Of a stretch of DNA of 43,138 nt, positions 1-43,138 are shown in pieces (the first letter of the stretch is position 1; every line of letters begins with the position of its first letter). The position numbers were made by a program, and so were the translations under genes. The notes under the pieces are model-generated. The model worked only from the letters and a program-made list of their open reading frames with translations. It searched no databases and was not told the origin of the DNA. The DNA is taken from UHGV virus genome UHGV-0213559. The stretch is one strand, 5' to 3'. This DNA is from a virus.

Positions 1-441
1 ATGTCTACCTATTCTTTTATGGATGTCACTGCGACGCTGACCGGCCCGACCGGTTCGATTGACCTCGGGTACGGTTCTGCAAGTTCTGAAGAGGGGATTG
101 TGGTTGCGATGGGCGGTCCTAAAAACACCATGACCATCGGTGCTGATGGTGAAGTGATGCACAGCCTCCATGCAGATAAAAGCGGGACGATTACCGTTAA
201 CCTTCTGAAGACATCACCGACAAATAAAAAATTGTCGCTGGCGTATAACGCACAGAGCCAGTCTTCTGCCACATGGGGGAATAACGTTATCGTGATCCGC
301 AACAAGGTCAGCGGCGACATCATCACGGCACGCAGTGTTGCGTTCCAGAAACAACCGGATAACGCCAACGCTAAAACCGGTAATACGATGCCGTGGGTGT
401 TTGACTGCGGCAAGATTGACCAGGTTCTCGGGGAGTTTTAA
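1..441 (+). CDS. phage tail tube protein (DUF3277-like, from memory)
   Basis: 146-aa ORF with ATG at base 1; if the window ends are joined, a GGGGAAG Shine-Dalgarno lies about 5 nt upstream; follows the sheath gene in circular order and precedes chaperone and tape measure. Confidence 0.55.
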   Translation: MSTYSFMDVTATLTGPTGSIDLGYGSASSEEGIVVAMGGPKNTMTIGADGEVMHSLHADKSGTITVNLLKTSPTNKKLSLAYNAQSQSSATWGNNVIVIRNKVSGDIITARSVAFQKQPDNANAKTGNTMPWVFDCGKIDQVLGEF

Positions 442-444
442 TGC

Positions 445-897
445 ATGGAATTCGAAATTAAAGGCGTGAAATATCGCACGGCAAAACTCAGCGTTTTTGA
501 CCAGCTGAAAGTGACCCGCAAACTTCTGCCGGTGCTGGCAGGAATGATGTCAGATTTCGGGAGTATTCGCTCCCGTTTGCCTGCTGACGGCAAAATCGAC
601 ACTGTGAAATTCGAACAGTTAAAACCGGTGTTTGAAACCATGCTCCCGCGTATCGCTGAGGAACTGTCTTCCCTGACCGAAGATGACACCGATGCGATTA
701 TTCATCCCTGTCTTGCGGTGGTATCGCGGCGTCATATGGACGGATGGGTGCCGGTATTTACCCAGGGCGAACTGATGTTTGATGATATTGACTTGCTGGT
801 CATGCTTCATCTGGTGGCGCGGGTGGTCGCCGATTCGCTGGGAAATTTTTTGCCTACACCCCTTACCAGCACGACGCAGAGCCTGCAACAGGGCTGA
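445..897 (+). CDS. tail assembly chaperone (zero-frame product)
   Basis: 150-aa ORF between tube and tape-measure genes; slippery run near its 3' end with an open -1 frame continuing to 1085. Confidence 0.5.
   Translation: MEFEIKGVKYRTAKLSVFDQLKVTRKLLPVLAGMMSDFGSIRSRLPADGKIDTVKFEQLKPVFETMLPRIAEELSSLTEDDTDAIIHPCLAVVSRRHMDGWVPVFTQGELMFDDIDLLVMLHLVARVVADSLGNFLPTPLTSTTQSLQQG
841..852 (+). promoter_or_regulatory. candidate -1 programmed ribosomal frameshift site (GGAAATTTTTTG, heptamers A_AAT_TTT / T_TTT_TTG)
   Basis: run of six T after AAA in the chaperone zero frame; the -1 frame is stop-free for about 77 codons from 852 to the TGA at 1083-1085. Confidence 0.45.
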
Positions 898-1074
898 CGT
901 TTAACAGCCTGCCGGACGGGCTGTCCTACCTTCTCAATCCGGTTGACGCCGGGTTAATTCCTTATACAGCACTTAAAGATGGCTCTGTCGATTTGTACGA
1001 CATTGCTCTCTTGAATGACCATCTGGCGGTAAAAGCGGATAACCAGCGGCGCATTGAGAAATGGAGAGAGGATA

Positions 1075-3063
1075 ATGAACGCTGAAACTATTAAAGATTT
1101 CCTCGTCTCGCTTGGCTTCAGTGTGGATGATGCAGGAGCGAAAAAGTTCGGTTCTGTCCTCGCCGGTACAACTGCAAATGTCATCAAAATGGGACTGGCC
1201 GTTGAAGGAGCTGCGCTGTCAGTGGTGGCCTTCACGGCTAAGATCGCCTCCGGCCTGGATAATCTTTACTGGGCGTCACAGCGCACCGGCGCGACAATCC
1301 AGGGAATTCAGTCTATTGGCTATGCGGTTTCGCAGGTTGGCGGCAGCGTGGACGCTGCGCGATCTTCTCTGGAAAGCCTCTCCCGGTTTATTCGTAACAA
1401 TCTCGGTGCAGAAGGCTTTCTGAATCGCCTGGGCGTACAGACCCGTGATGCCAGCGGTAACATGCGTGACATGGCCGCTATCTTTACGGGCGTTGGACAG
1501 AAACTCAGCAGCATGCCGTATTACCGGGCTAACCAGTATGCGCAGATGCTGGGCATTGACGAAAATACCCTTATGGCGATGCGCCGGGGTGTGGGTGGCT
1601 TCTCCGGGCAGTACAGCGCAATGGCGAAAGCTATCGGCTTCAATGCTGACGAGGCGGCCAGAAGCTCCAACAAATTTATGACCTCCCTGCGTGAGTTTGG
1701 CGCGATGGCAGGCATGGCCCGTGACAAAATCGGCTCTAATCTTGCGGGGGGGCTTGCGGGTTCGCTGGACACCCTGCGCCGCCATATCCTGGACAACTTC
1801 CCTCGTATCGAGCAGACCCTGACGAAAGCCATAAAAGGCATTCTGGCGCTCGGGGATATTATCGGGCGGCTGTTCTTCAGACTGATTGAGGGGACATCAG
1901 GCCTTATCACCTGGTGGCAATCGCTGGATAAGCAAACGCGGGAGTTGATCTCGCTGTTTGGCGCACTGACGATTGCGCTGCGCATTCTGAACAGTACGTT
2001 CTGGATGTCGCCGGTTGGCCTCATTACCGCGCTGGCGGCGGGGATTGCCCTCCTGTGGGAGGACTATCAGACCTGGAAGGAAGGCGGCGACAGCCTGATT
2101 GACTGGGGCAAGTGGAAACCGGAGGTCGATGCCGCGCTGAAGATGGTTCGTGACCTTAAAACGACCGTTAACGATCTGGCGAAAGCGCTGGCGAAACTGC
2201 TCAATATTGACCCCAAATCATGGTCCCTGAAGTGGGATTTCAGCAACTTCATCGACCAGATGGGCGAATTCAGCAAAATGCTGAACATGATCGCCGACCT
2301 GCTCAACGCTATCAAAGATGGACGCTGGGCTGATGCCGTCAGCATCGGCAAACAGATACTTAATCAGGGCAGCGAAAATCCGTCAGCGATGCCGATGGTT
2401 ACAGACAGCGCTAACAGTACTGCCGACTGGATTAAAGAGCACTGGGGATTCGATCCCCGCAGTGTGGGCCGGACGGTACGCGGCTGGTTTGGTGATGATG
2501 AGCCGGAACAACATGCACAGGCTACGAAACGAGGAGAGCGGAATAACAATCCGGGAAACCTTAATTTTGCTGGTCAGGCAGGGGCTTCTCTTGAACACCC
2601 GGGCGGGCGATTTGCCAGATTTGAAACTGCCTTTGATGGATTACGGGCTCTTGCTCGTCAGTTAATGTTGTACGCCGGGCGAGGAATAAACAGTGTGGAA
2701 AAAATTATCTCTACCTGGGCACCTGCCTCTGATAATAACAACACAACTGCGTATATCAGGGCTGTATCGCAACGACTGGGAGTGGATCCCCGGGCAGCCC
2801 TGAATATGAGCGATCCGAAAACCATGTCAGCATTGATGAGCAGCATTATCCAGCATGAAAATGGAAGAAATATCTATTCCCGAGAGCTGATTAATAAGGC
2901 TGCCGTGGCGGGAATTAGTGGCAAAATGACAGAGGTTAACCAGCAAAATACCTACCACATTTACGGTGGCGGAGATCCGCACGCTGTCGGTAATGAGGTT
3001 GCACGTCAGCAACAGTCTGCAAATGCTCAGGTCATGCGAAGTAATCAGGTGAGGGTGGGTTAG
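1075..3063 (+). CDS. tail tape measure protein
   Basis: 662 aa from ATG 1075 with GGAGAGAGG SD (ORF track starts at TTG 1054); long, Ala/Gly-rich, helical-looking with a central hydrophobic segment; canonical position after the chaperone. Confidence 0.7.
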   Translation: MNAETIKDFLVSLGFSVDDAGAKKFGSVLAGTTANVIKMGLAVEGAALSVVAFTAKIASGLDNLYWASQRTGATIQGIQSIGYAVSQVGGSVDAARSSLESLSRFIRNNLGAEGFLNRLGVQTRDASGNMRDMAAIFTGVGQKLSSMPYYRANQYAQMLGIDENTLMAMRRGVGGFSGQYSAMAKAIGFNADEAARSSNKFMTSLREFGAMAGMARDKIGSNLAGGLAGSLDTLRRHILDNFPRIEQTLTKAIKGILALGDIIGRLFFRLIEGTSGLITWWQSLDKQTRELISLFGALTIALRILNSTFWMSPVGLITALAAGIALLWEDYQTWKEGGDSLIDWGKWKPEVDAALKMVRDLKTTVNDLAKALAKLLNIDPKSWSLKWDFSNFIDQMGEFSKMLNMIADLLNAIKDGRWADAVSIGKQILNQGSENPSAMPMVTDSANSTADWIKEHWGFDPRSVGRTVRGWFGDDEPEQHAQATKRGERNNNPGNLNFAGQAGASLEHPGGRFARFETAFDGLRALARQLMLYAGRGINSVEKIISTWAPASDNNNTTAYIRAVSQRLGVDPRAALNMSDPKTMSALMSSIIQHENGRNIYSRELINKAAVAGISGKMTEVNQQNTYHIYGGGDPHAVGNEVARQQQSANAQVMRSNQVRVG

Positions 3064-3954: not shown

Positions 3955-5022
3955 ATGTCACAGAACTGGATGAGACATTTCGAGCTGCAGCTTGTGGACG
4001 GGAACGGTCAGGGAATTGAGCTAAGTGATTTCAAAGTCACCTTTACGATCGACTGGTTCAACATCAGCAGCGCGTCCCGGGTAGGGACTATCAAAATTTA
4101 TAACCTCTCGGCAGATACTGTGAACCGAATTACCGGGCAGGAGTTTTCGAAAGTGCGTCTGATTGCGGGTTACGACGGTATCGCGCCGGAGGTGTCGGCA
4201 AGCGACGTCGGGACAGTGCGGGAAGTTGACGCGGCGGACGTGGGCCAGAGTGATGGTCGCAACTACGGACTGATTTTCAGCGGTGAAATTCGCTACTCGG
4301 TCACAGGAAAAGACAGTCCGGTTGATTCCTACGTCCTGATTCAGGCAGCAGATACTGATCTGGCTTTTGCCACCAGTATAACCTCACAGACGCTGGCTGC
4401 CGGTTACACGGTCGCTGATGTGAACCGTGCGCTGATGAAAGACTTCGAAGCCAAAGGTGCGACCGAAGGCCTGACGCCTGAAATGCCTGCTACTGTATTC
4501 CCCCGGGGGCGGGTGCTCTTTGGCATGACGCGGCATCTAATGGATAACGTAGCCGGGCAATGTGGCGCAACATGGCAATTCGTGGACGGTCAGCGCCAGA
4601 TGGTGGCGACTAATGAATATGTTCACGAAGCGATTGTGCTCAACAGTGCTACCGGGCTTATTGGCATGCCGCAGCAGACCATCGGCAACGGCGTAAACGT
4701 CCGCGCGCTTATTAATCCGAACATCCGGGTTAACGGGCTCATTCAGCTGGATCAGGCTTCCGTCTATCGTACCGCGTTGTCGAACAACGATATTGCGATG
4801 GCTGGTGGTCAGATCACCGACCAGAACACGGACGGAAATATCACGCTCAGCGGCACCACATCGCAGCCTGCCAGCATCGCAACGGATGGCGTTTATATTG
4901 TGCGCGGGATTATGTACACTGGTGACACAAGGGGCCAGGCGTGGTACATGGACATGATGTGCGAAGCGCGTGGCGCGGCGGATTTACTTTCGTCCTCAGC
5001 GCAGCAAAGGTTTTATTCATGA
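3955..5022 (+). CDS. baseplate hub-like tail protein (Mu gp44 / P2 gpD-like position)
   Basis: 355-aa ORF in the hub position of the tail gene order; assignment by synteny and size only. Confidence 0.45.
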   Translation: MSQNWMRHFELQLVDGNGQGIELSDFKVTFTIDWFNISSASRVGTIKIYNLSADTVNRITGQEFSKVRLIAGYDGIAPEVSASDVGTVREVDAADVGQSDGRNYGLIFSGEIRYSVTGKDSPVDSYVLIQAADTDLAFATSITSQTLAAGYTVADVNRALMKDFEAKGATEGLTPEMPATVFPRGRVLFGMTRHLMDNVAGQCGATWQFVDGQRQMVATNEYVHEAIVLNSATGLIGMPQQTIGNGVNVRALINPNIRVNGLIQLDQASVYRTALSNNDIAMAGGQITDQNTDGNITLSGTTSQPASIATDGVYIVRGIMYTGDTRGQAWYMDMMCEARGAADLLSSSAQQRFYS

Positions 5023-5366
5023 AGCGTATGAAGTTAGTTCTGACAATTTCGTTACTGTTTTCCTGCTCATCGGCTTTCGCTGATTTGCAATGCGGGGGAT
5101 ACCGACTTCATGCATCTGATAACGGGTGGACGAAAATCAACGGCGAACAGGTAACATCTCAGAAAATTAAGTTTCTTGGTCAGAAAGATGACTGGGACAA
5201 CGTTAAAACCGACATGGGCCTGATGCCTTCCCGCGATGGCAACAATTACGGCTTTGAGTTTGTGAAGCGTAACGGAAAAGCTTTTCTGAACGTCCAGCTT
5301 CTGCAGAACAGCATGGATGCGCCTAGAATCATCGGATCATTCCCTTGTAAAAAGGCGTTACGCTAA
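5019..5366 (+). CDS. secreted or lipoprotein cargo protein (signal peptide)
   Basis: in-frame ATG at 5019 overlapping the upstream stop (ATGA); N-terminus MKRMKLVLTISLLFSCSSAFA is a typical signal peptide with a possible lipobox Cys; AT-rich by eye. Confidence 0.5.
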   Translation: MKRMKLVLTISLLFSCSSAFADLQCGGYRLHASDNGWTKINGEQVTSQKIKFLGQKDDWDNVKTDMGLMPSRDGNNYGFEFVKRNGKAFLNVQLLQNSMDAPRIIGSFPCKKALR

Positions 5367-5461: not shown

Positions 5462-6235
5462 ATGGCGGCAGGCATCCCACTAGAAAAAGCGCAAAAATAT
5501 GTTGAACAATTCAATGCGCTTCTATTGGATAGGGAAAGATTAGATCCCTTCACTGAAAAGAAAATTCGAGAGGAACTTTCTGTTTCTCCAACGCCTGCTA
5601 CCAACATTGCACTATCTTATCTGGATGCAATAACCGGAAAGATTGAAAGCGCGTTACGTTATCTCAGGATAAGCCTGGAAGTAAACGATGTAACGTTGGC
5701 AATGCACTATCATCACATTTTAATTAATACATTTAGCTATAATGAACTCAAGGATGTCTATGTCCCGCTGGCAAAGAAGTATCGGACAAAACTTTTTAGT
5801 CACAACGCATACAGTTGGGCGTACCGTTGCGGTGAGCGTGAACAGTTAGAATTTTATATGGAAGAGCACATTAAGCTTCTTTCTGAATCAGAAGGCAGGA
5901 GTAATGCTATGAAGCACAAAGAAGAACTCCTTGCAGAAATGGATAATTTCTATAGCGCCACACAGTGCTCGAAGGAACAGTTTCAGACCTTAGCATCCAT
6001 AATCTGGGGCTTGCTAAGTGAATACAAGGCTACGACAGGTTTCGTTCAGCTTAGTGGAAGCGGTTGCTATGTTGTTGATATTAAAAATCTTGAGCCTAAA
6101 ACTATTGCCAAAATGAATTTCGATTTGGCTGATAGAGTCTGTGCTGAATCTAAACTGGATGATTGTTCCCTGTTAGCTAGATTTACCTCTCCGCGTCAGT
6201 TGCATACGGGGGTGAGCTACCATGTCGGTAACTAG
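5462..6235 (+). CDS. hypothetical protein, cargo gene A (257 aa)
   Basis: ORF-track ORF; AT-richer than flanking tail genes by eye; 3' end overlaps the next ORF by 14 nt. Confidence 0.5.
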   Translation: MAAGIPLEKAQKYVEQFNALLLDRERLDPFTEKKIREELSVSPTPATNIALSYLDAITGKIESALRYLRISLEVNDVTLAMHYHHILINTFSYNELKDVYVPLAKKYRTKLFSHNAYSWAYRCGEREQLEFYMEEHIKLLSESEGRSNAMKHKEELLAEMDNFYSATQCSKEQFQTLASIIWGLLSEYKATTGFVQLSGSGCYVVDIKNLEPKTIAKMNFDLADRVCAESKLDDCSLLARFTSPRQLHTGVSYHVGN

Positions 6236-41982: not shown

Positions 41983-43128
41983 ATGGCACAGGGCTTGCCT
42001 GTATCAAACGTTGTTAATGTTGATGTGATCATGTCGCCGCGTGCAGCATCAGGGCGAAATTTTGGTGCATTACTCATTCTCGGCCCGTCCACAATCATTC
42101 CGGTAAGTGAGCGCATTCGTCGTTATTCTGCCGCGGAAGATATTGGAAAAGATTTTGGCGTGGAATCACCAGAATATAAAGCTGCGCAGGTGTTTTTCTC
42201 ACAATCACCGAAACCTCAGGAGGTTTTTGTTGGTCGTTGGGTGAAAACGAAGGGAGACAGCGAACAGGCCACGCCTGAGACGCTGGAGCAGGCTGTGAAT
42301 GCCATGCTCGATTATACTTCATGGTATGGGCTGGGGATTGCAGACGATGAAGATATTCCGGATGCAGACTGGCTGAAAGTGGCTGCGGCGATCGAATCCT
42401 CTTCTGTAAGCCGTATTCTGGCGATTACGACAAGCGATGATAAATGCCTGCAGACTGCATCCAGCGATGATTTGGCATCAAAACTGAAAACCGCCGGATA
42501 TTCACGCAGTTTTATTCAGTATTCATCGGGTAATAAATACGCTGCGTTATCTGCATTTGGCCGGGCATTCACGGTTAATTTCAATGGCAGTAATACCGCG
42601 ATTACGCTCAAGTTTAAGCAGGAGCCGGGTGTCGGGTATGAAACACTGACAGTCAGCCAGGCATCGGCACTTGATGCAAAAAACTGCAATGTATTCGTGT
42701 ACTACCAGAATGATACGGCTATCCTCCAGCAGGGAGTGATGGCTAACGGCGATTTCTTTGATGAACGCCACGGCCTGGACTGGTTACAGAATTATGTGCA
42801 GACCAACCTCTATAACCTGCTTTATACCAGCACCACGAAAGTTCCCCAGACTGAAGCCGGTATTACCCGACTGTTATCAAATGTTGAAAAATCACTGGAT
42901 CAGGCCGTTCAGAATGGACTGATTGCTCCGGGCGTATGGAACGGGGGCGACCTTGGTCAGTTGTCATCAGGTGACACACTGCCCAAAGGTTATTACGTAT
43001 ACGCCCAGCCGCTGGATGAACAGGCACAATCAGAACGTGAAGCCCGTAAGGCTCCGGTGATTCAGGCTGCAATAAAACTTGCAGGCGCGGTTCATTACGC
43101 TGACGTACAGATTAACGTTGTTCGCTAA
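41983..43128 (+). CDS. tail sheath protein (DUF3383-like, from memory)
   Basis: 381-aa ORF ending 10 nt before the window end, directly upstream (in circular order) of the tube gene at base 1. Confidence 0.6.
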
Positions 43129-43138
43129 GGGGAAGTGA

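What the first reader, a model, noticed from the sequence alone, without database searches (positions are those of the whole stretch)
841..1085. Probable -1 programmed frameshift extending the tail assembly chaperone
The chaperone ORF contains the slippery run GGAAATTTTTTG (841-852). The -1 frame from that point is open for about 77 codons, ending at the TGA at 1083-1085 just inside the tape-measure gene start. This matches the conserved G/GT-type frameshift of tailed phages, and the ORF track cannot show it because the extension has no start codon.
Basis: partly seen in the sequence, partly recalled or inferred. Interest (0 to 1): 0.45.

Follow-up and report, generated by a model that had tools for sequence, protein, structure and literature searches.

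The report
Tail chaperone programmed -1 frameshift
A small share of ribosomes translating this E. coli prophage's tail assembly chaperone gene very probably slip back one base at a conserved GGGAAATTTTTTG patch and make a longer chaperone. This is the ordinary two-proteins-from-one-gene device of long-tailed phages, but public annotation of this phage group misses it.

Summary

- **Slip site.** GGA AAT TTT TTG (841-852) lies in phase in the chaperone gene (445-897). With the preceding G it forms three overlapping X_XXY_YYZ heptamers.
- **-1 frame.** It is open from 792 to the TGA at 1083-1085, just inside the tape-measure gene (ATG 1075). It has no usable start codon.
- **The extension is a real protein domain.** It matches Pfam DUF6889 (E=1e-20). 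It shows dN/dS of 0.02-0.15 against close relatives.
- **Conservation.** About 55 related loci from Enterobacterales to Burkholderia, Bordetella and Acinetobacter keep the -1 extension and a slippery patch at the same place. AAT, TTT and TTG never vary at synonymous positions.
- **Natural fusions.** Distant relatives encode both domains in one frame. They align end to end with the predicted product (E=2e-29).
- **Stimulators.** No downstream RNA structure is conserved. A strong Shine-Dalgarno-like element lies 11-17 nt upstream.
- **Annotation.** GenBank marks the homologous frameshift in Klebsiella phage Mulock (identical site) and Burkholderia phage Magia. RefSeq E. coli, SEN34 and YP3 do not.

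Verdict: a real, ordinary G/GT-type frameshift and a new member of a known kind. Interest is modest.

The parts
1..441 (+). Tail tube gene (DUF3277 / KPP10_Orf10). It is the upstream neighbour of the chaperone and the presumed binding partner of the T domain.
   Evidence: Pfam PF11681 E=8.8e-61. RefSeq names it 'DUF3277 family protein'.
445..897 (+). Gene G: tail assembly chaperone, 150 aa, the product of standard zero-frame translation.
   Evidence: Pfam Phage_TAC_15 PF21822 E=1.7e-30, 106.5 bits against a cut-off of 22. phrog_1688 E=9.8e-65. The best named Foldseek matches in BFVD are tail assembly chaperones.
820..829 (+). CGGGTGGTCG: an internal Shine-Dalgarno-like element and candidate 5' stimulator. 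Its GGGTGGTC core (821-828) lies 11, 14 and 17 nt upstream of the three heptamers.
   Evidence: It is the strongest anti-SD duplex of the whole 445-1100 region (-12.7 kcal/mol). The region mean is -2.2 (sd 2.4) and the real tape-measure RBS gives -8.3. The duplex is -8 kcal/mol or stronger in 45 of 56 related loci. It is the gene-wide minimum in 33 of 56, often through different sequences. Codon choice is biased towards it: R126 CGG in 29/42 and V127 GTG in 42/49. Its function is inferred, not shown.
840..852 (+). Slippery patch G_GGA_AAT_TTT_TTG. It holds three overlapping in-phase heptamers: 840-846, 843-849 (favoured) and 846-852.
   Evidence: Sequence. These are the only in-phase heptamers in the overlap and the only triple run in the window. 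Synonymous entropy is 0: AAT 44/44, TTT 49/49, TTG 44/44; GGA is 44/49. Distant phages carry a slip patch at the homologous position.
849..1085 (+). T segment: the -1 frame extension, 78 codons plus TGA. It is translated only after the shift. GT is 213 aa in total, and DUF6889 forms its C-terminal core.
   Evidence: Pfam DUF6889 PF21829 E=1.2e-20 and phrog_4364 E=1.9e-23. Codon-position entropy is 0.82/0.65/1.46 and dN/dS is 0.02-0.15. There is no start codon. In the AF2 model residues 160-213 form a confident helical domain. Natural in-frame fusions align across the junction.
921..1085 (+). RefSeq/PGAP CDS 'DUF6889 family protein' (54 aa, CTG start). This is an annotation artefact that covers the 3' part of the T segment.
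   Evidence: locus 2022-2186 equals window 921-1085. Position 921 is CTG. That start cuts off the conserved LPDG motif and the conserved -1-frame residues upstream of it.
1075..3063 (+). Tape measure gene with a C-terminal lytic transglycosylase region. Its RBS is GGAGAGAGG at 1062-1070. It is the downstream neighbour and the presumed ligand of the G domain.
   Evidence: phrog_2276 E=3e-280. RefSeq start and product name. The T stop at 1083-1085 lies inside it.

Best explanation
This is the G/GT-type programmed -1 ribosomal frameshift of a myovirus-type tail module (SEN34 / Brunovirus-like E. coli prophage).

**Products.** Most ribosomes read 445-897 and release the 150-aa chaperone G. A minority slip back one nucleotide on the G_GGA_AAT_TTT_TTG patch (840-852) and continue in the -1 frame to the TGA at 1083-1085. 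The result is a 213-aa GT protein. It consists of the G domain (about residues 1-136), a flexible linker and a roughly 55-aa helical T domain (DUF6889).

**Which heptamer.** A_AAT_TTT (843-849) is the most likely main site. Here tRNA-Phe in the A site re-pairs cognately UUU to UUU, giving the junction ...GNFFAYTP.... T_TTT_TTG (846-852) is a second site or backup. It gives ...GNFLAYTP... if both tRNAs slip, or GNFF if only the P-site tRNA-Phe slips while the rare UUG codon waits.

**Stimulators.** No downstream RNA structure is involved. An upstream SD-like element (820-829) pairing with 16S rRNA may raise the efficiency.

**Function.** By analogy with lambda gpG/gpGT, G and the G part of GT coat the tape measure protein. 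The T domain recruits the tube protein, and neither product ends up in the virion.

**Shown here:** the sequence anatomy, its conservation, the coding nature of the -1 frame, and homology to annotated frameshift loci and to natural fusions.

**Inferred:** that the shift occurs, its efficiency, which heptamer is used, the role of the SD-like element, and the binding partners.
For: **Anatomy.** The gene order is tube, TAC, -1 ORF, tape measure.

**The -1 ORF is a real domain with no start codon.** It matches DUF6889 at E=1.2e-20. PGAP has to use a CTG start. About 40 of 56 relatives have no ATG, GTG or TTG between the slip site and the domain.

**Conservation of the extension.** 46 of 49 loci from one genome per species keep a -1 extension of 58-65 codons, while the +1 frame is closed. 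Ten phages of Klebsiella, Hafnia, Providencia, Acinetobacter, Ralstonia, Bordetella and Burkholderia keep 55-64 codons.

**Slip patch at the homologous LG(N/P/S)F position.** The in-phase heptamers differ by lineage: A_AAT_TTT, C_CCT_TTT, G_GGT_TTT, T_TTT_TTN and G_GGA_AAT.

**Synonymous conservation.** AAT is 44/44, TTT 49/49 and TTG 44/44. Other conserved Phe columns are about 50:50 TTT/TTC.

**Purifying selection.** It acts in the -1 frame after the G stop. The -1 motif F-x-R-T-P-(Y/R) begins immediately after the slip site, while the zero-frame tail is variable.

**Fusions.**
- A T7 variant (L084/P0001) gives exactly the predicted fused ORF.
- Natural in-frame TAC_15+DUF6889 proteins have no slippery run at the junction. 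They align with the predicted GT over residues 3-211, E=2e-29.

**Precedent.** GenBank annotates 'tape measure chaperone frameshift product' at the homologous loci of Mulock (identical GGAAATTTTTTG) and Magia.

**Motif rules in E. coli.** H_HH.U_UU.Y heptamers and cognate A-site re-pairing are efficient, and U_UUG is weak (PMC4066793).

**The lambda paradigm.** PMC5009743.
Against: - There is no experimental evidence for this family: no protein data, no reporter assay, and no paper mentions DUF6889.
- No downstream stimulatory structure was found. MFE z-scores are -0.8 and -0.3, the RNAalifold consensus is -1.67 kcal/mol and Rfam gives no hit. Efficiency may therefore be low. This is also the case for lambda G/GT.
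- All three heptamers are sub-optimal for E. coli compared with X_XXA_AAG.
- One relative, Burkholderia phage E192a, has no canonical heptamer (GGT TCT TTT).
- A few relatives have a stop-start overlap (TAATG or TGATG) just before the T domain, which could allow separate translation there.
Confidence: 0.9

Rival explanations
1. Transcriptional slippage. RNA polymerase stutters on the T6 run (846-851) and adds one U to a fraction of the mRNAs. Standard translation of those mRNAs then gives the same GNFF fusion protein.
For: The shift site contains a homopolymer. A DNA variant with T7 encodes exactly the fusion, so one extra U in the RNA would be enough. The product would be indistinguishable from a ribosomal shift on A_AAT_TTT.
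Against: Bacterial transcriptional slippage is described for runs of about 9 A or T (PMC5009743), and this run has 6. Relatives keep the -1 extension with only T4 (Acinetobacter GGA AAT TTT ATT; Burkholderia CCT TTT ATC) or with no T run at all (Bordetella GGA AAT ACT). In every lineage the repeats sit in the exact X_XXY_YYZ phase. Ribosomes need that phase and polymerase does not.
Confidence: 0.04
2. DUF6889 is a separate small gene, as RefSeq annotates it (921-1085, CTG start). It would be translated on its own or by re-initiation after the G stop codon.
For: PGAP and some phage records call a 42-59 aa CDS here. Most DUF6889 hits in the protein libraries are such short ORFs. A few relatives have ATG or GTG four codons before the LP motif, overlapping the G stop.
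Against: In the window there is no ATG, GTG or TTG upstream of the conserved domain and no SD-like sequence before 921. The CTG start cuts off the conserved LPDG motif. About 40 of 56 relatives have no start codon, and where starts occur they are scattered. Conservation of the -1 frame begins at the slip site, about 20 codons upstream of any such start. The slip site is frozen at synonymous positions. Natural fusions show that the two domains work as one chain.
Confidence: 0.04
3. Chance. The slippery run and the open -1 frame coincide without function, and only G is made.
For: Open -1 frames of this length after a stop are common in this compact genome (median 45 codons). T6 runs are common too, with 21 on the + strand.
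Against: The -1 frame matches a curated protein family (E=1e-20), shows dN/dS far below 1 and is kept across two proteobacterial classes. The slip site never varies at synonymous positions.
Confidence: 0.01

Closest known systems
Bacteriophage lambda gpG / gpGT -1 frameshift (Levin, Hendrix & Casjens 1993; Xu, Hendrix & Duda 2004, 2013, 2014; summarised in PMC5009743)
   Same: Two overlapping ORFs lie between the major tail gene and the tape measure gene. [quoted passage not shown] No 3' structure is needed, and the extension ends at the start of the tape measure gene. The expected logic is the same: G binds the tape measure and T recruits the tube.
   Different: There is no detectable sequence similarity to lambda G or T. 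This is a myovirus-type module (sheath DUF3383, tube DUF3277). The A-site codon is AAT/TTT/TTG rather than AAG, so tRNA-Lys is not involved. Three overlapping heptamers are present. An upstream SD-like element is conserved. None of this has been tested experimentally here.
Klebsiella phage Mulock CPT_Mulock_014/015 and Burkholderia phage Magia CPT_Magia_015/016 ('tape measure chaperone frameshift product', GenBank MN098327, MT701587)
   Same: These are true homologues (T domain 63% and 42% identical) with the same gene order. Mulock has the identical GGAAATTTTTTG site. Magia has C_CCT_TTT at the homologous codons.
   Different: They are annotation-only predictions. The Mulock paper does not mention the frameshift. 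The E. coli, SEN34 and YP3 members are not annotated this way.
TAC-N / TAC-NC frameshift proposed for Pakpunavirus (phage Adele) and Andersonviridae, with a conserved GTTTTT motif (PMC12846349)
   Same: The tail architecture is related (KPP10-type tube family). The downstream fragment is routinely mis-annotated as a hypothetical protein. The slip motif is T-rich, the -1 frame is uninterrupted across divergent genera, and the argument is purely comparative.
   Different: It is a different phage family and host, and I did not test sequence homology of the chaperones. Their motif is stated as GTTTTT, whereas here it is a 13-nt triple heptamer.
E. coli dnaX and IS911/IS3 -1 frameshift signals (5' SD-like element + heptamer + 3' hairpin or pseudoknot)
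   Same: There is an in-phase heptamer preceded by a strong internal SD-like sequence. It lies within the 6-17 nt range used to search for such stimulators (PMC4066793).
   Different: There is no 3' hairpin or pseudoknot. The heptamer is not X_XXA_AAG. The frameshift product is the longer protein, not the shorter one as in dnaX.

Membership tests
G/GT-type tail assembly chaperone -1 programmed frameshift (Xu, Hendrix & Duda 2004) | Two overlapping ORFs placed between the major tail (tube) gene and the tape measure gene | tested here: met
   Tube 1-441, G 445-897, -1 ORF 792-1085, tape measure 1075-3063.
G/GT-type tail assembly chaperone -1 programmed frameshift (Xu, Hendrix & Duda 2004) | The second ORF is in the -1 frame and has no translation start of its own | tested here: met
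   There is no ATG, GTG or TTG in the -1 frame from 792 up to the conserved domain. PGAP resorts to a CTG start. There is no SD-like sequence before 921.
G/GT-type tail assembly chaperone -1 programmed frameshift (Xu, Hendrix & Duda 2004) | A slippery X_XXY_YYZ heptamer, in zero-frame phase, inside the overlap | tested here: met
   G_GGA_AAT, A_AAT_TTT and T_TTT_TTG at 840-852. These are the only in-phase heptamers in the overlap.
G/GT-type tail assembly chaperone -1 programmed frameshift (Xu, Hendrix & Duda 2004) | The arrangement and slip site are conserved among relatives despite sequence divergence | tested here: met
   46 of 49 species-level loci and 10 of 10 distant phages keep the -1 extension. 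The slip codons never vary at synonymous sites.
G/GT-type tail assembly chaperone -1 programmed frameshift (Xu, Hendrix & Duda 2004) | The -1 ORF encodes a protein under purifying selection | tested here: met
   DUF6889 E=1.2e-20. dN/dS is 0.02-0.15 and third-position entropy is about twice that of positions 1 and 2.
G/GT-type tail assembly chaperone -1 programmed frameshift (Xu, Hendrix & Duda 2004) | Two proteins (G and GT) are made in a fixed ratio, both are needed for tail assembly, and both are absent from virions | not testable with these tools
   This needs a Western blot or mass spectrometry, a reporter assay and genetics.
G/GT-type tail assembly chaperone -1 programmed frameshift (Xu, Hendrix & Duda 2004) | The G domain binds the tape measure protein and the T domain binds the major tail or tube protein | not testable with these tools
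   This is inferred only by analogy with lambda (PMC5009743).
Pfam Phage_TAC_15 (PF21822) | Score above the curated gathering threshold | tested here: met
   106.5 bits against 22, E=1.7e-30, profile positions 1-122 of 127.
Tail assembly chaperone fold (HK97 gp13-like spiral; Pell et al. 2013) | Structural similarity of the G domain to solved TAC structures | tested here: inconclusive
Pfam DUF6889 (PF21829) | Score above the curated gathering threshold | tested here: met
   73.4 bits against 23.9, E=1.2e-20, profile positions 2-40 of 40.
dnaX / IS911-type frameshift cassette | Conserved 3' hairpin or pseudoknot 5-9 nt after the heptamer | tested here: not met
   MFE z-scores are -0.8 and -0.3. 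The RNAalifold consensus over 24 sequences is -1.67 kcal/mol. Rfam finds nothing.
dnaX / IS911-type frameshift cassette | SD-like element 6-17 nt upstream of the heptamer | tested here: met
   The GGGTGGTC core (821-828) of CGGGTGGTCG (820-829) lies 11, 14 and 17 nt upstream, -12.7 kcal/mol against the anti-SD. It is kept in 45 of 56 loci. Its function is not shown.
Transcriptional slippage site | Homopolymer run long enough for RNA polymerase stuttering (about 9 A or T in bacteria), with no phase requirement | tested here: not met
   The run is T6. Relatives have T4 or no run, and always in heptamer phase. Run length requirement from PMC5009743.

The most novel reading that the evidence does not exclude
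The signal may be a structure-free, three-part cassette that has not been described for tail chaperone frameshifts. It would combine a conserved internal Shine-Dalgarno-like element (820-829), which pairs with the GAUCACC part of the 16S 3' end, with three tandem heptamers. Ribosomes would shift at two sites and make two GT isoforms, with junctions GNFF and GNFL.

A related possibility comes from distant relatives that encode G and T in one frame with no slippery site (L150, L151). They may make only the long form. That would question whether the short/long ratio is universally required.
Probability: 0.3. Interest if true: 0.4.

Novelty: new member of a known kind. Interest (0 to 1): 0.3.

Why it matters
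- **Annotation.** The 'DUF6889 family protein' CDS occurs in hundreds of E. coli genomes (346 of 5426 complete genomes carry this locus). In SEN34-like phages the same stretch is an unexplained gap. The CDS is a fragment of the frameshift product. Pfam DUF6889 and phrog_4364 are the T domain of the Phage_TAC_15 chaperones. This gives a function to a domain of unknown function that no paper mentions.
- **Mechanism.** It adds a well-conserved myovirus example whose slip site does not use tRNA-Lys. It also has a candidate upstream SD stimulator, which could serve as a clean test case for structure-free -1 frameshifting in E. coli.
- **Limits.** It does not change the general picture of tail assembly.

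Tried and rejected
- **Downstream stimulatory structure.** Single-sequence folds, RNAalifold on 24 diverse loci and Rfam found nothing conserved. A stable hairpin at about 904-924 lies 52 nt from the site and is not conserved.
- **T7 pattern scan of viral contigs**. The five hits are unrelated chance 18-mer matches, with no TAC homology by tblastn.
- **Long PEGA-repeat proteins among the T-domain hits**. I first suspected a dockerin or EF-hand-like motif. Pfam shows they are PEGA / CarboxypepD_reg repeat proteins with many weak stretches, so the hits are spurious.
- **First viral-contig search**. It returned only relatives 93-99% identical, which is useless for covariation. The genome contigs and phage tblastn searches gave the needed diversity.
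- **Solved structures by sequence** and **NCBIfam**: no hits.
- **Literature.** The Mulock genome paper does not mention the frameshift. Vladimirov et al. 2022 is not held. One literature search was wasted on too broad a query.
- **Length of the open -1 frame as a statistic.** I rejected it, because adjacent genes in this genome often occupy the -1 frame.
Full report
**1. The observation**

Positions 841-852 read GGAAATTTTTTG. They are the zero-frame codons GGA AAT TTT TTG (Gly133 Asn134 Phe135 Leu136) of the 150-codon ORF 445-897. With G840 they form three overlapping heptamers in the X_XXY_YYZ phase that tandem tRNA slippage needs:
- G_GGA_AAT (840-846)
- A_AAT_TTT (843-849)
- T_TTT_TTG (846-852)

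The -1 frame is closed by a stop at 789-791. It is then open from 792 to the TGA at 1083-1085. From the shift site it gives 78 codons: FAYTPYQHDAEPATGLTFNSLPDGLSYLLNPVDAGLIPYTALKDGSVDLYDIALLNDHLAVKADNQRRIEKWREDNER.

The tape measure gene starts at ATG 1075, behind GGAGAGAGG (one search gives the RefSeq start). The -1 stop therefore lies just inside it.

Length alone proves little. In this compact genome the -1 frame after a stop is open for a median of 45 codons, because the next gene often lies there. Here, however, the next gene is in the same frame as the chaperone, so the -1 stretch belongs to no gene. In-phase heptamers occur at 3.4 per 1000 codons, so about 0.12 are expected in the 35-codon overlap. 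Three are seen, and this is the only triple run in the window.

**2. What the genes are**

| Window position | Gene | Evidence |
|---|---|---|
| 1-441 | Tail tube | DUF3277 / KPP10_Orf10, E=9e-61 |
| 445-897 | Tail assembly chaperone | Phage_TAC_15, E=1.7e-30; phrog_1688, E=1e-64 |
| 1075-3063 | Tape measure with a lytic transglycosylase region | phrog_2276 |
| after 3063 | Dit-like, Pam3_gp18-like plug and baseplate hub proteins | |

The sheath gene (DUF3383) is at the very end of the window.

The window is 100% identical to a prophage of E. coli TB06051. It is about 83-85% identical to Salmonella phage SEN34 (Brunovirus) and Yersinia phage YP3.

The 78-residue -1 translation on its own matches Pfam DUF6889 (E=1.2e-20, above threshold) and phrog_4364 (E=1.9e-23). 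The -1 frame therefore encodes a recognised, conserved protein domain.

**3. How public records treat it**
- RefSeq/PGAP annotates a separate 54-aa 'DUF6889 family protein' at window 921-1085. It begins at a CTG because no normal start exists.
- SEN34 and YP3 leave a 177-nt gap.
- Klebsiella phage Mulock has the identical GGAAATTTTTTG. Burkholderia phage Magia has GGC CCT TTT ATC, that is C_CCT_TTT. Both carry a joined CDS 'tape measure chaperone frameshift product'.
- The Mulock paper does not discuss it, and no paper mentions DUF6889.
- A 2025 paper argues on comparative grounds for a conserved -1 frameshift with a GTTTTT motif in the chaperone of Pakpunavirus and Andersonviridae. These phages have a related tail architecture (PMC12846349).

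**4. Comparative test**

*Conservation of the extension.* I fetched 49 loci from a collection holding one genome per species (chaperone 40-85% identical, Enterobacterales). In 46 intact loci the -1 frame runs 58-65 codons past the chaperone stop and ends at the tape measure start. The +1 frame does not. Ten phages of Klebsiella, Hafnia, Providencia, Acinetobacter, Ralstonia, Bordetella and Burkholderia behave the same way, with 55-64 codons.

*Slip patch.* It always sits at the homologous L-G-(N/P/S)-F position and always in phase, but the heptamers differ by lineage:

| Lineage | Heptamer(s) |
|---|---|
| Most Enterobacterales | G_GGA_AAT_TTT_TTG |
| Some Erwinia, Providencia | T_TTT_TTN only |
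| Acinetobacter | G_GGA_AAT + A_AAT_TTT |
| Burkholderia | C_CCT_TTT |
| Ralstonia | G_GGT_TTT + T_TTT_TTC |
| Bordetella | G_GGA_AAT only |
| Burkholderia phage E192a | no canonical heptamer (GGT TCT TTT) |

*Synonymous sites.* Among 49 distinct sequences, AAT is 44/44, TTT 49/49, TTG 44/44 and GGA 44/49. Other conserved Phe columns are about 1:1 TTT:TTC, and other Leu columns use up to six codons.

*Selection on the -1 frame.* After the chaperone stop, the -1 frame has codon-position entropies of 0.82, 0.65 and 1.46. Against close relatives dN/dS is 0.02-0.15 with dS above 1.

*Where the constraint begins.* Conservation of the -1 protein (F-x-R-T-P-Y/R) starts right after the slip site. The zero-frame tail there is a variable P/T/E/Q-rich stretch. 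About 40 of 56 loci have no ATG, GTG or TTG between the slip site and the conserved LP(D/G)G motif.

**5. Natural fusions**
- A Logan assembly (L084) has T7 instead of T6 and therefore one 213-aa ORF. It reads ...SLGNFFAYTPYQ..., exactly the predicted product.
- Such variants are rare. The cluster has 16 members, including E. coli ISC7, and 80 of 80 IMG/VR loci have T6. They may be homopolymer sequencing errors.
- More telling is an exhaustive profile-free search with the T segment. It found about eight clusters of roughly 200-aa proteins in which the TAC and DUF6889 domains are in one frame.
- In the two I could read at DNA level, the junction has no slippery run (TAC TTC TCG; CCG TTC TTC TCC).
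- These proteins align with the predicted GT from residue 3 to 211 without a break at the junction. The match is 32% identity, E=2e-29, with VADSLGNFFAYTPYQHD aligned to LGDNLHGYFSYTPVAFD.
- This shows that the two domains work as one chain. It also places the shift at the GNF patch.

**6. Structure**

**7. Stimulators**

There is no downstream structure. MFE z-scores are -0.8 and -0.3, the consensus fold is -1.67 kcal/mol with no covariation, and there is no Rfam hit.

Upstream, CGGGTGGTCG (820-829) is the best anti-Shine-Dalgarno match in the whole 445-1100 region. It scores -12.7 kcal/mol, against a regional mean of -2.2 and -8.3 for the true tape measure RBS. Its GGGTGGTC core (821-828) lies 11, 14 and 17 nt before the three heptamers. 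That is inside the 6-17 nt range used for such stimulators (PMC4066793).

A comparable match (-8 kcal/mol or stronger) is present in 45 of 56 loci and is the gene-wide minimum in 33 of 56. It is often made from different sequences: GAGAGTGATC, AGGGTGATCG, TAGTGGAGGA, CTTGGGAGGC, GAGGTCATCA. Codon choice is biased towards it, with the rare CGG in 29/42 and GTG in 42/49. This is suggestive, not proven. Shared ancestry and the conserved A-R-V-V peptide both inflate these counts.

**8. Which heptamer**

[quoted passage not shown] Among tetramers the order is A_AAG >> U_UUC > U_UUU, while U_UUG is barely above background. H_HH.U_UU.Y heptamers are in the efficient class (PMC4066793).

This favours A_AAT_TTT (843-849). 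The distant relatives agree, since they share the X_XXT_TTT form. T_TTT_TTG is the only motif present in all Enterobacterales, so it is probably used too.

The products differ. A_AAT_TTT, or a slip of the P-site tRNA alone on T_TTT, gives GNFF-AYTP. A tandem slip on T_TTT_TTG gives GNFL-AYTP. My own knowledge, not tested here: UUG is read by minor Leu tRNAs in E. coli, which would favour a P-site slip.

**9. Rivals**
- **Transcriptional slippage** is unlikely. The run has only six T, against about nine in known bacterial cases (PMC5009743). Relatives manage with T4 or no run, and always in heptamer phase.
- **A separate small gene** is unlikely, for the reasons given in sections 4 and 5.
- **Chance** is excluded by the comparative data.

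**10. Function**

By analogy with lambda (PMC5009743), G and GT would bind the tape measure protein, and T would recruit the tube protein. The ratio would be set by the shift efficiency: about 30:1 in lambda, 2-3 times higher frameshift efficiency in P2, and 6-7% efficiency measured for HK97-like cases (PMC3711429). None of this is shown for this family.

**11. Verdict**

This is a real and ordinary G/GT-type -1 programmed frameshift. It is a new, unannotated member of a known kind. The useful by-products are:
- DUF6889 and phrog_4364 are the T domain of Phage_TAC_15 chaperones.
- The RefSeq CTG-start CDS is an artefact.
- The signal seems to rely on tandem heptamers plus an upstream SD-like element rather than on RNA structure.

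Confidence in the frameshift is 0.9. Interest is 0.3.

Noticed in passing
window 820-829: CGGGTGGTCG is the strongest anti-Shine-Dalgarno match in the chaperone region, stronger than the real tape measure RBS. It lies 11-17 nt upstream of the slip patch. Equivalent matches, built from different sequences, occur in most relatives. It is a candidate 5' frameshift stimulator.
   Followed up: partly
window 921-1085; L001 2022-2186: RefSeq/PGAP annotates a 54-aa 'DUF6889 family protein' with a CTG start. Pfam DUF6889 and phrog_4364 appear to be built from such fragments of the frameshift product.
   Followed up: yes
L084 1895-1912 (Logan SRR23924998); cluster of P0001, including E. coli ISC7 CDL28562.1: A few assemblies carry T7 instead of T6, which fuses G and T into one 213-aa ORF. 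They are either homopolymer sequencing errors or natural GT-only mutants. 80 of 80 IMG/VR relatives have T6.
   Followed up: partly
L150 1038-1664 and L151 1501-2133 (proteins P0171, P0164; also P0149, P0156, P0174, P0202, P0235): Distant relatives encode TAC_15 and DUF6889 in a single frame with no slippery run at the junction. In L150 the fused gene is followed directly by Dit-like, Pam3_gp18-like and hub genes, with no tape measure gene in between. How these systems make a short form, or whether they do, is unknown.
   Followed up: partly
L097, L098, L110, L126 (junction of the G stop and the T domain): In some relatives the chaperone stop overlaps an ATG in the -1 frame (TAATG or TGATG), four codons before the LPDG motif. 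Termination-reinitiation could therefore also yield a free T peptide there. The slip site and the upstream -1 conservation are nevertheless kept.
   Followed up: partly
window 41983-43138 and 1-441: The sheath gene (DUF3383) ends 10 nt before the end of the window, and the tube gene starts at base 1. In E. coli TB06051 the two genes are adjacent with a 10-nt gap. The window therefore looks like a complete, circularly permuted phage or prophage genome of about 43.1 kb, opened between sheath and tube.
   Followed up: partly
window 5019-5366 and 5462-6235: Two ORFs with no Pfam match sit between the baseplate hub gene and the rest of the baseplate module. One is a 115-aa protein with a signal-peptide or lipoprotein-like N-terminus (MKRMKLVLTISLLFSCSSAFA...). 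The other is a 257-aa protein. They are possible cargo or moron genes.
   Followed up: no
L117 (Izhakiella australiensis), L092 (Apirhabdus), L123 and L129 (Arsenophonus): These are degraded copies. In L117 the T frame runs on for 241 codons into an unrelated structural gene, which looks like a deletion. L092 has a broken chaperone ORF. L123 has a stop in the -1 frame after the slip site. They are probably decaying prophages.
   Followed up: no
window 1075-3063, residues about 474-651 of the product: The C-terminal part of the tape measure protein matches endolysin or transglycosylase families (phrog_873, phrog_7182). RefSeq names the whole protein 'lytic transglycosylase'.
   Followed up: no
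L142 (Burkholderia phage vB_E192a), codons GGT TCT TTT: This relative keeps the 63-codon -1 extension but has no canonical heptamer at the homologous position. Only the A-site T_TTT tetramer remains.
   Followed up: no
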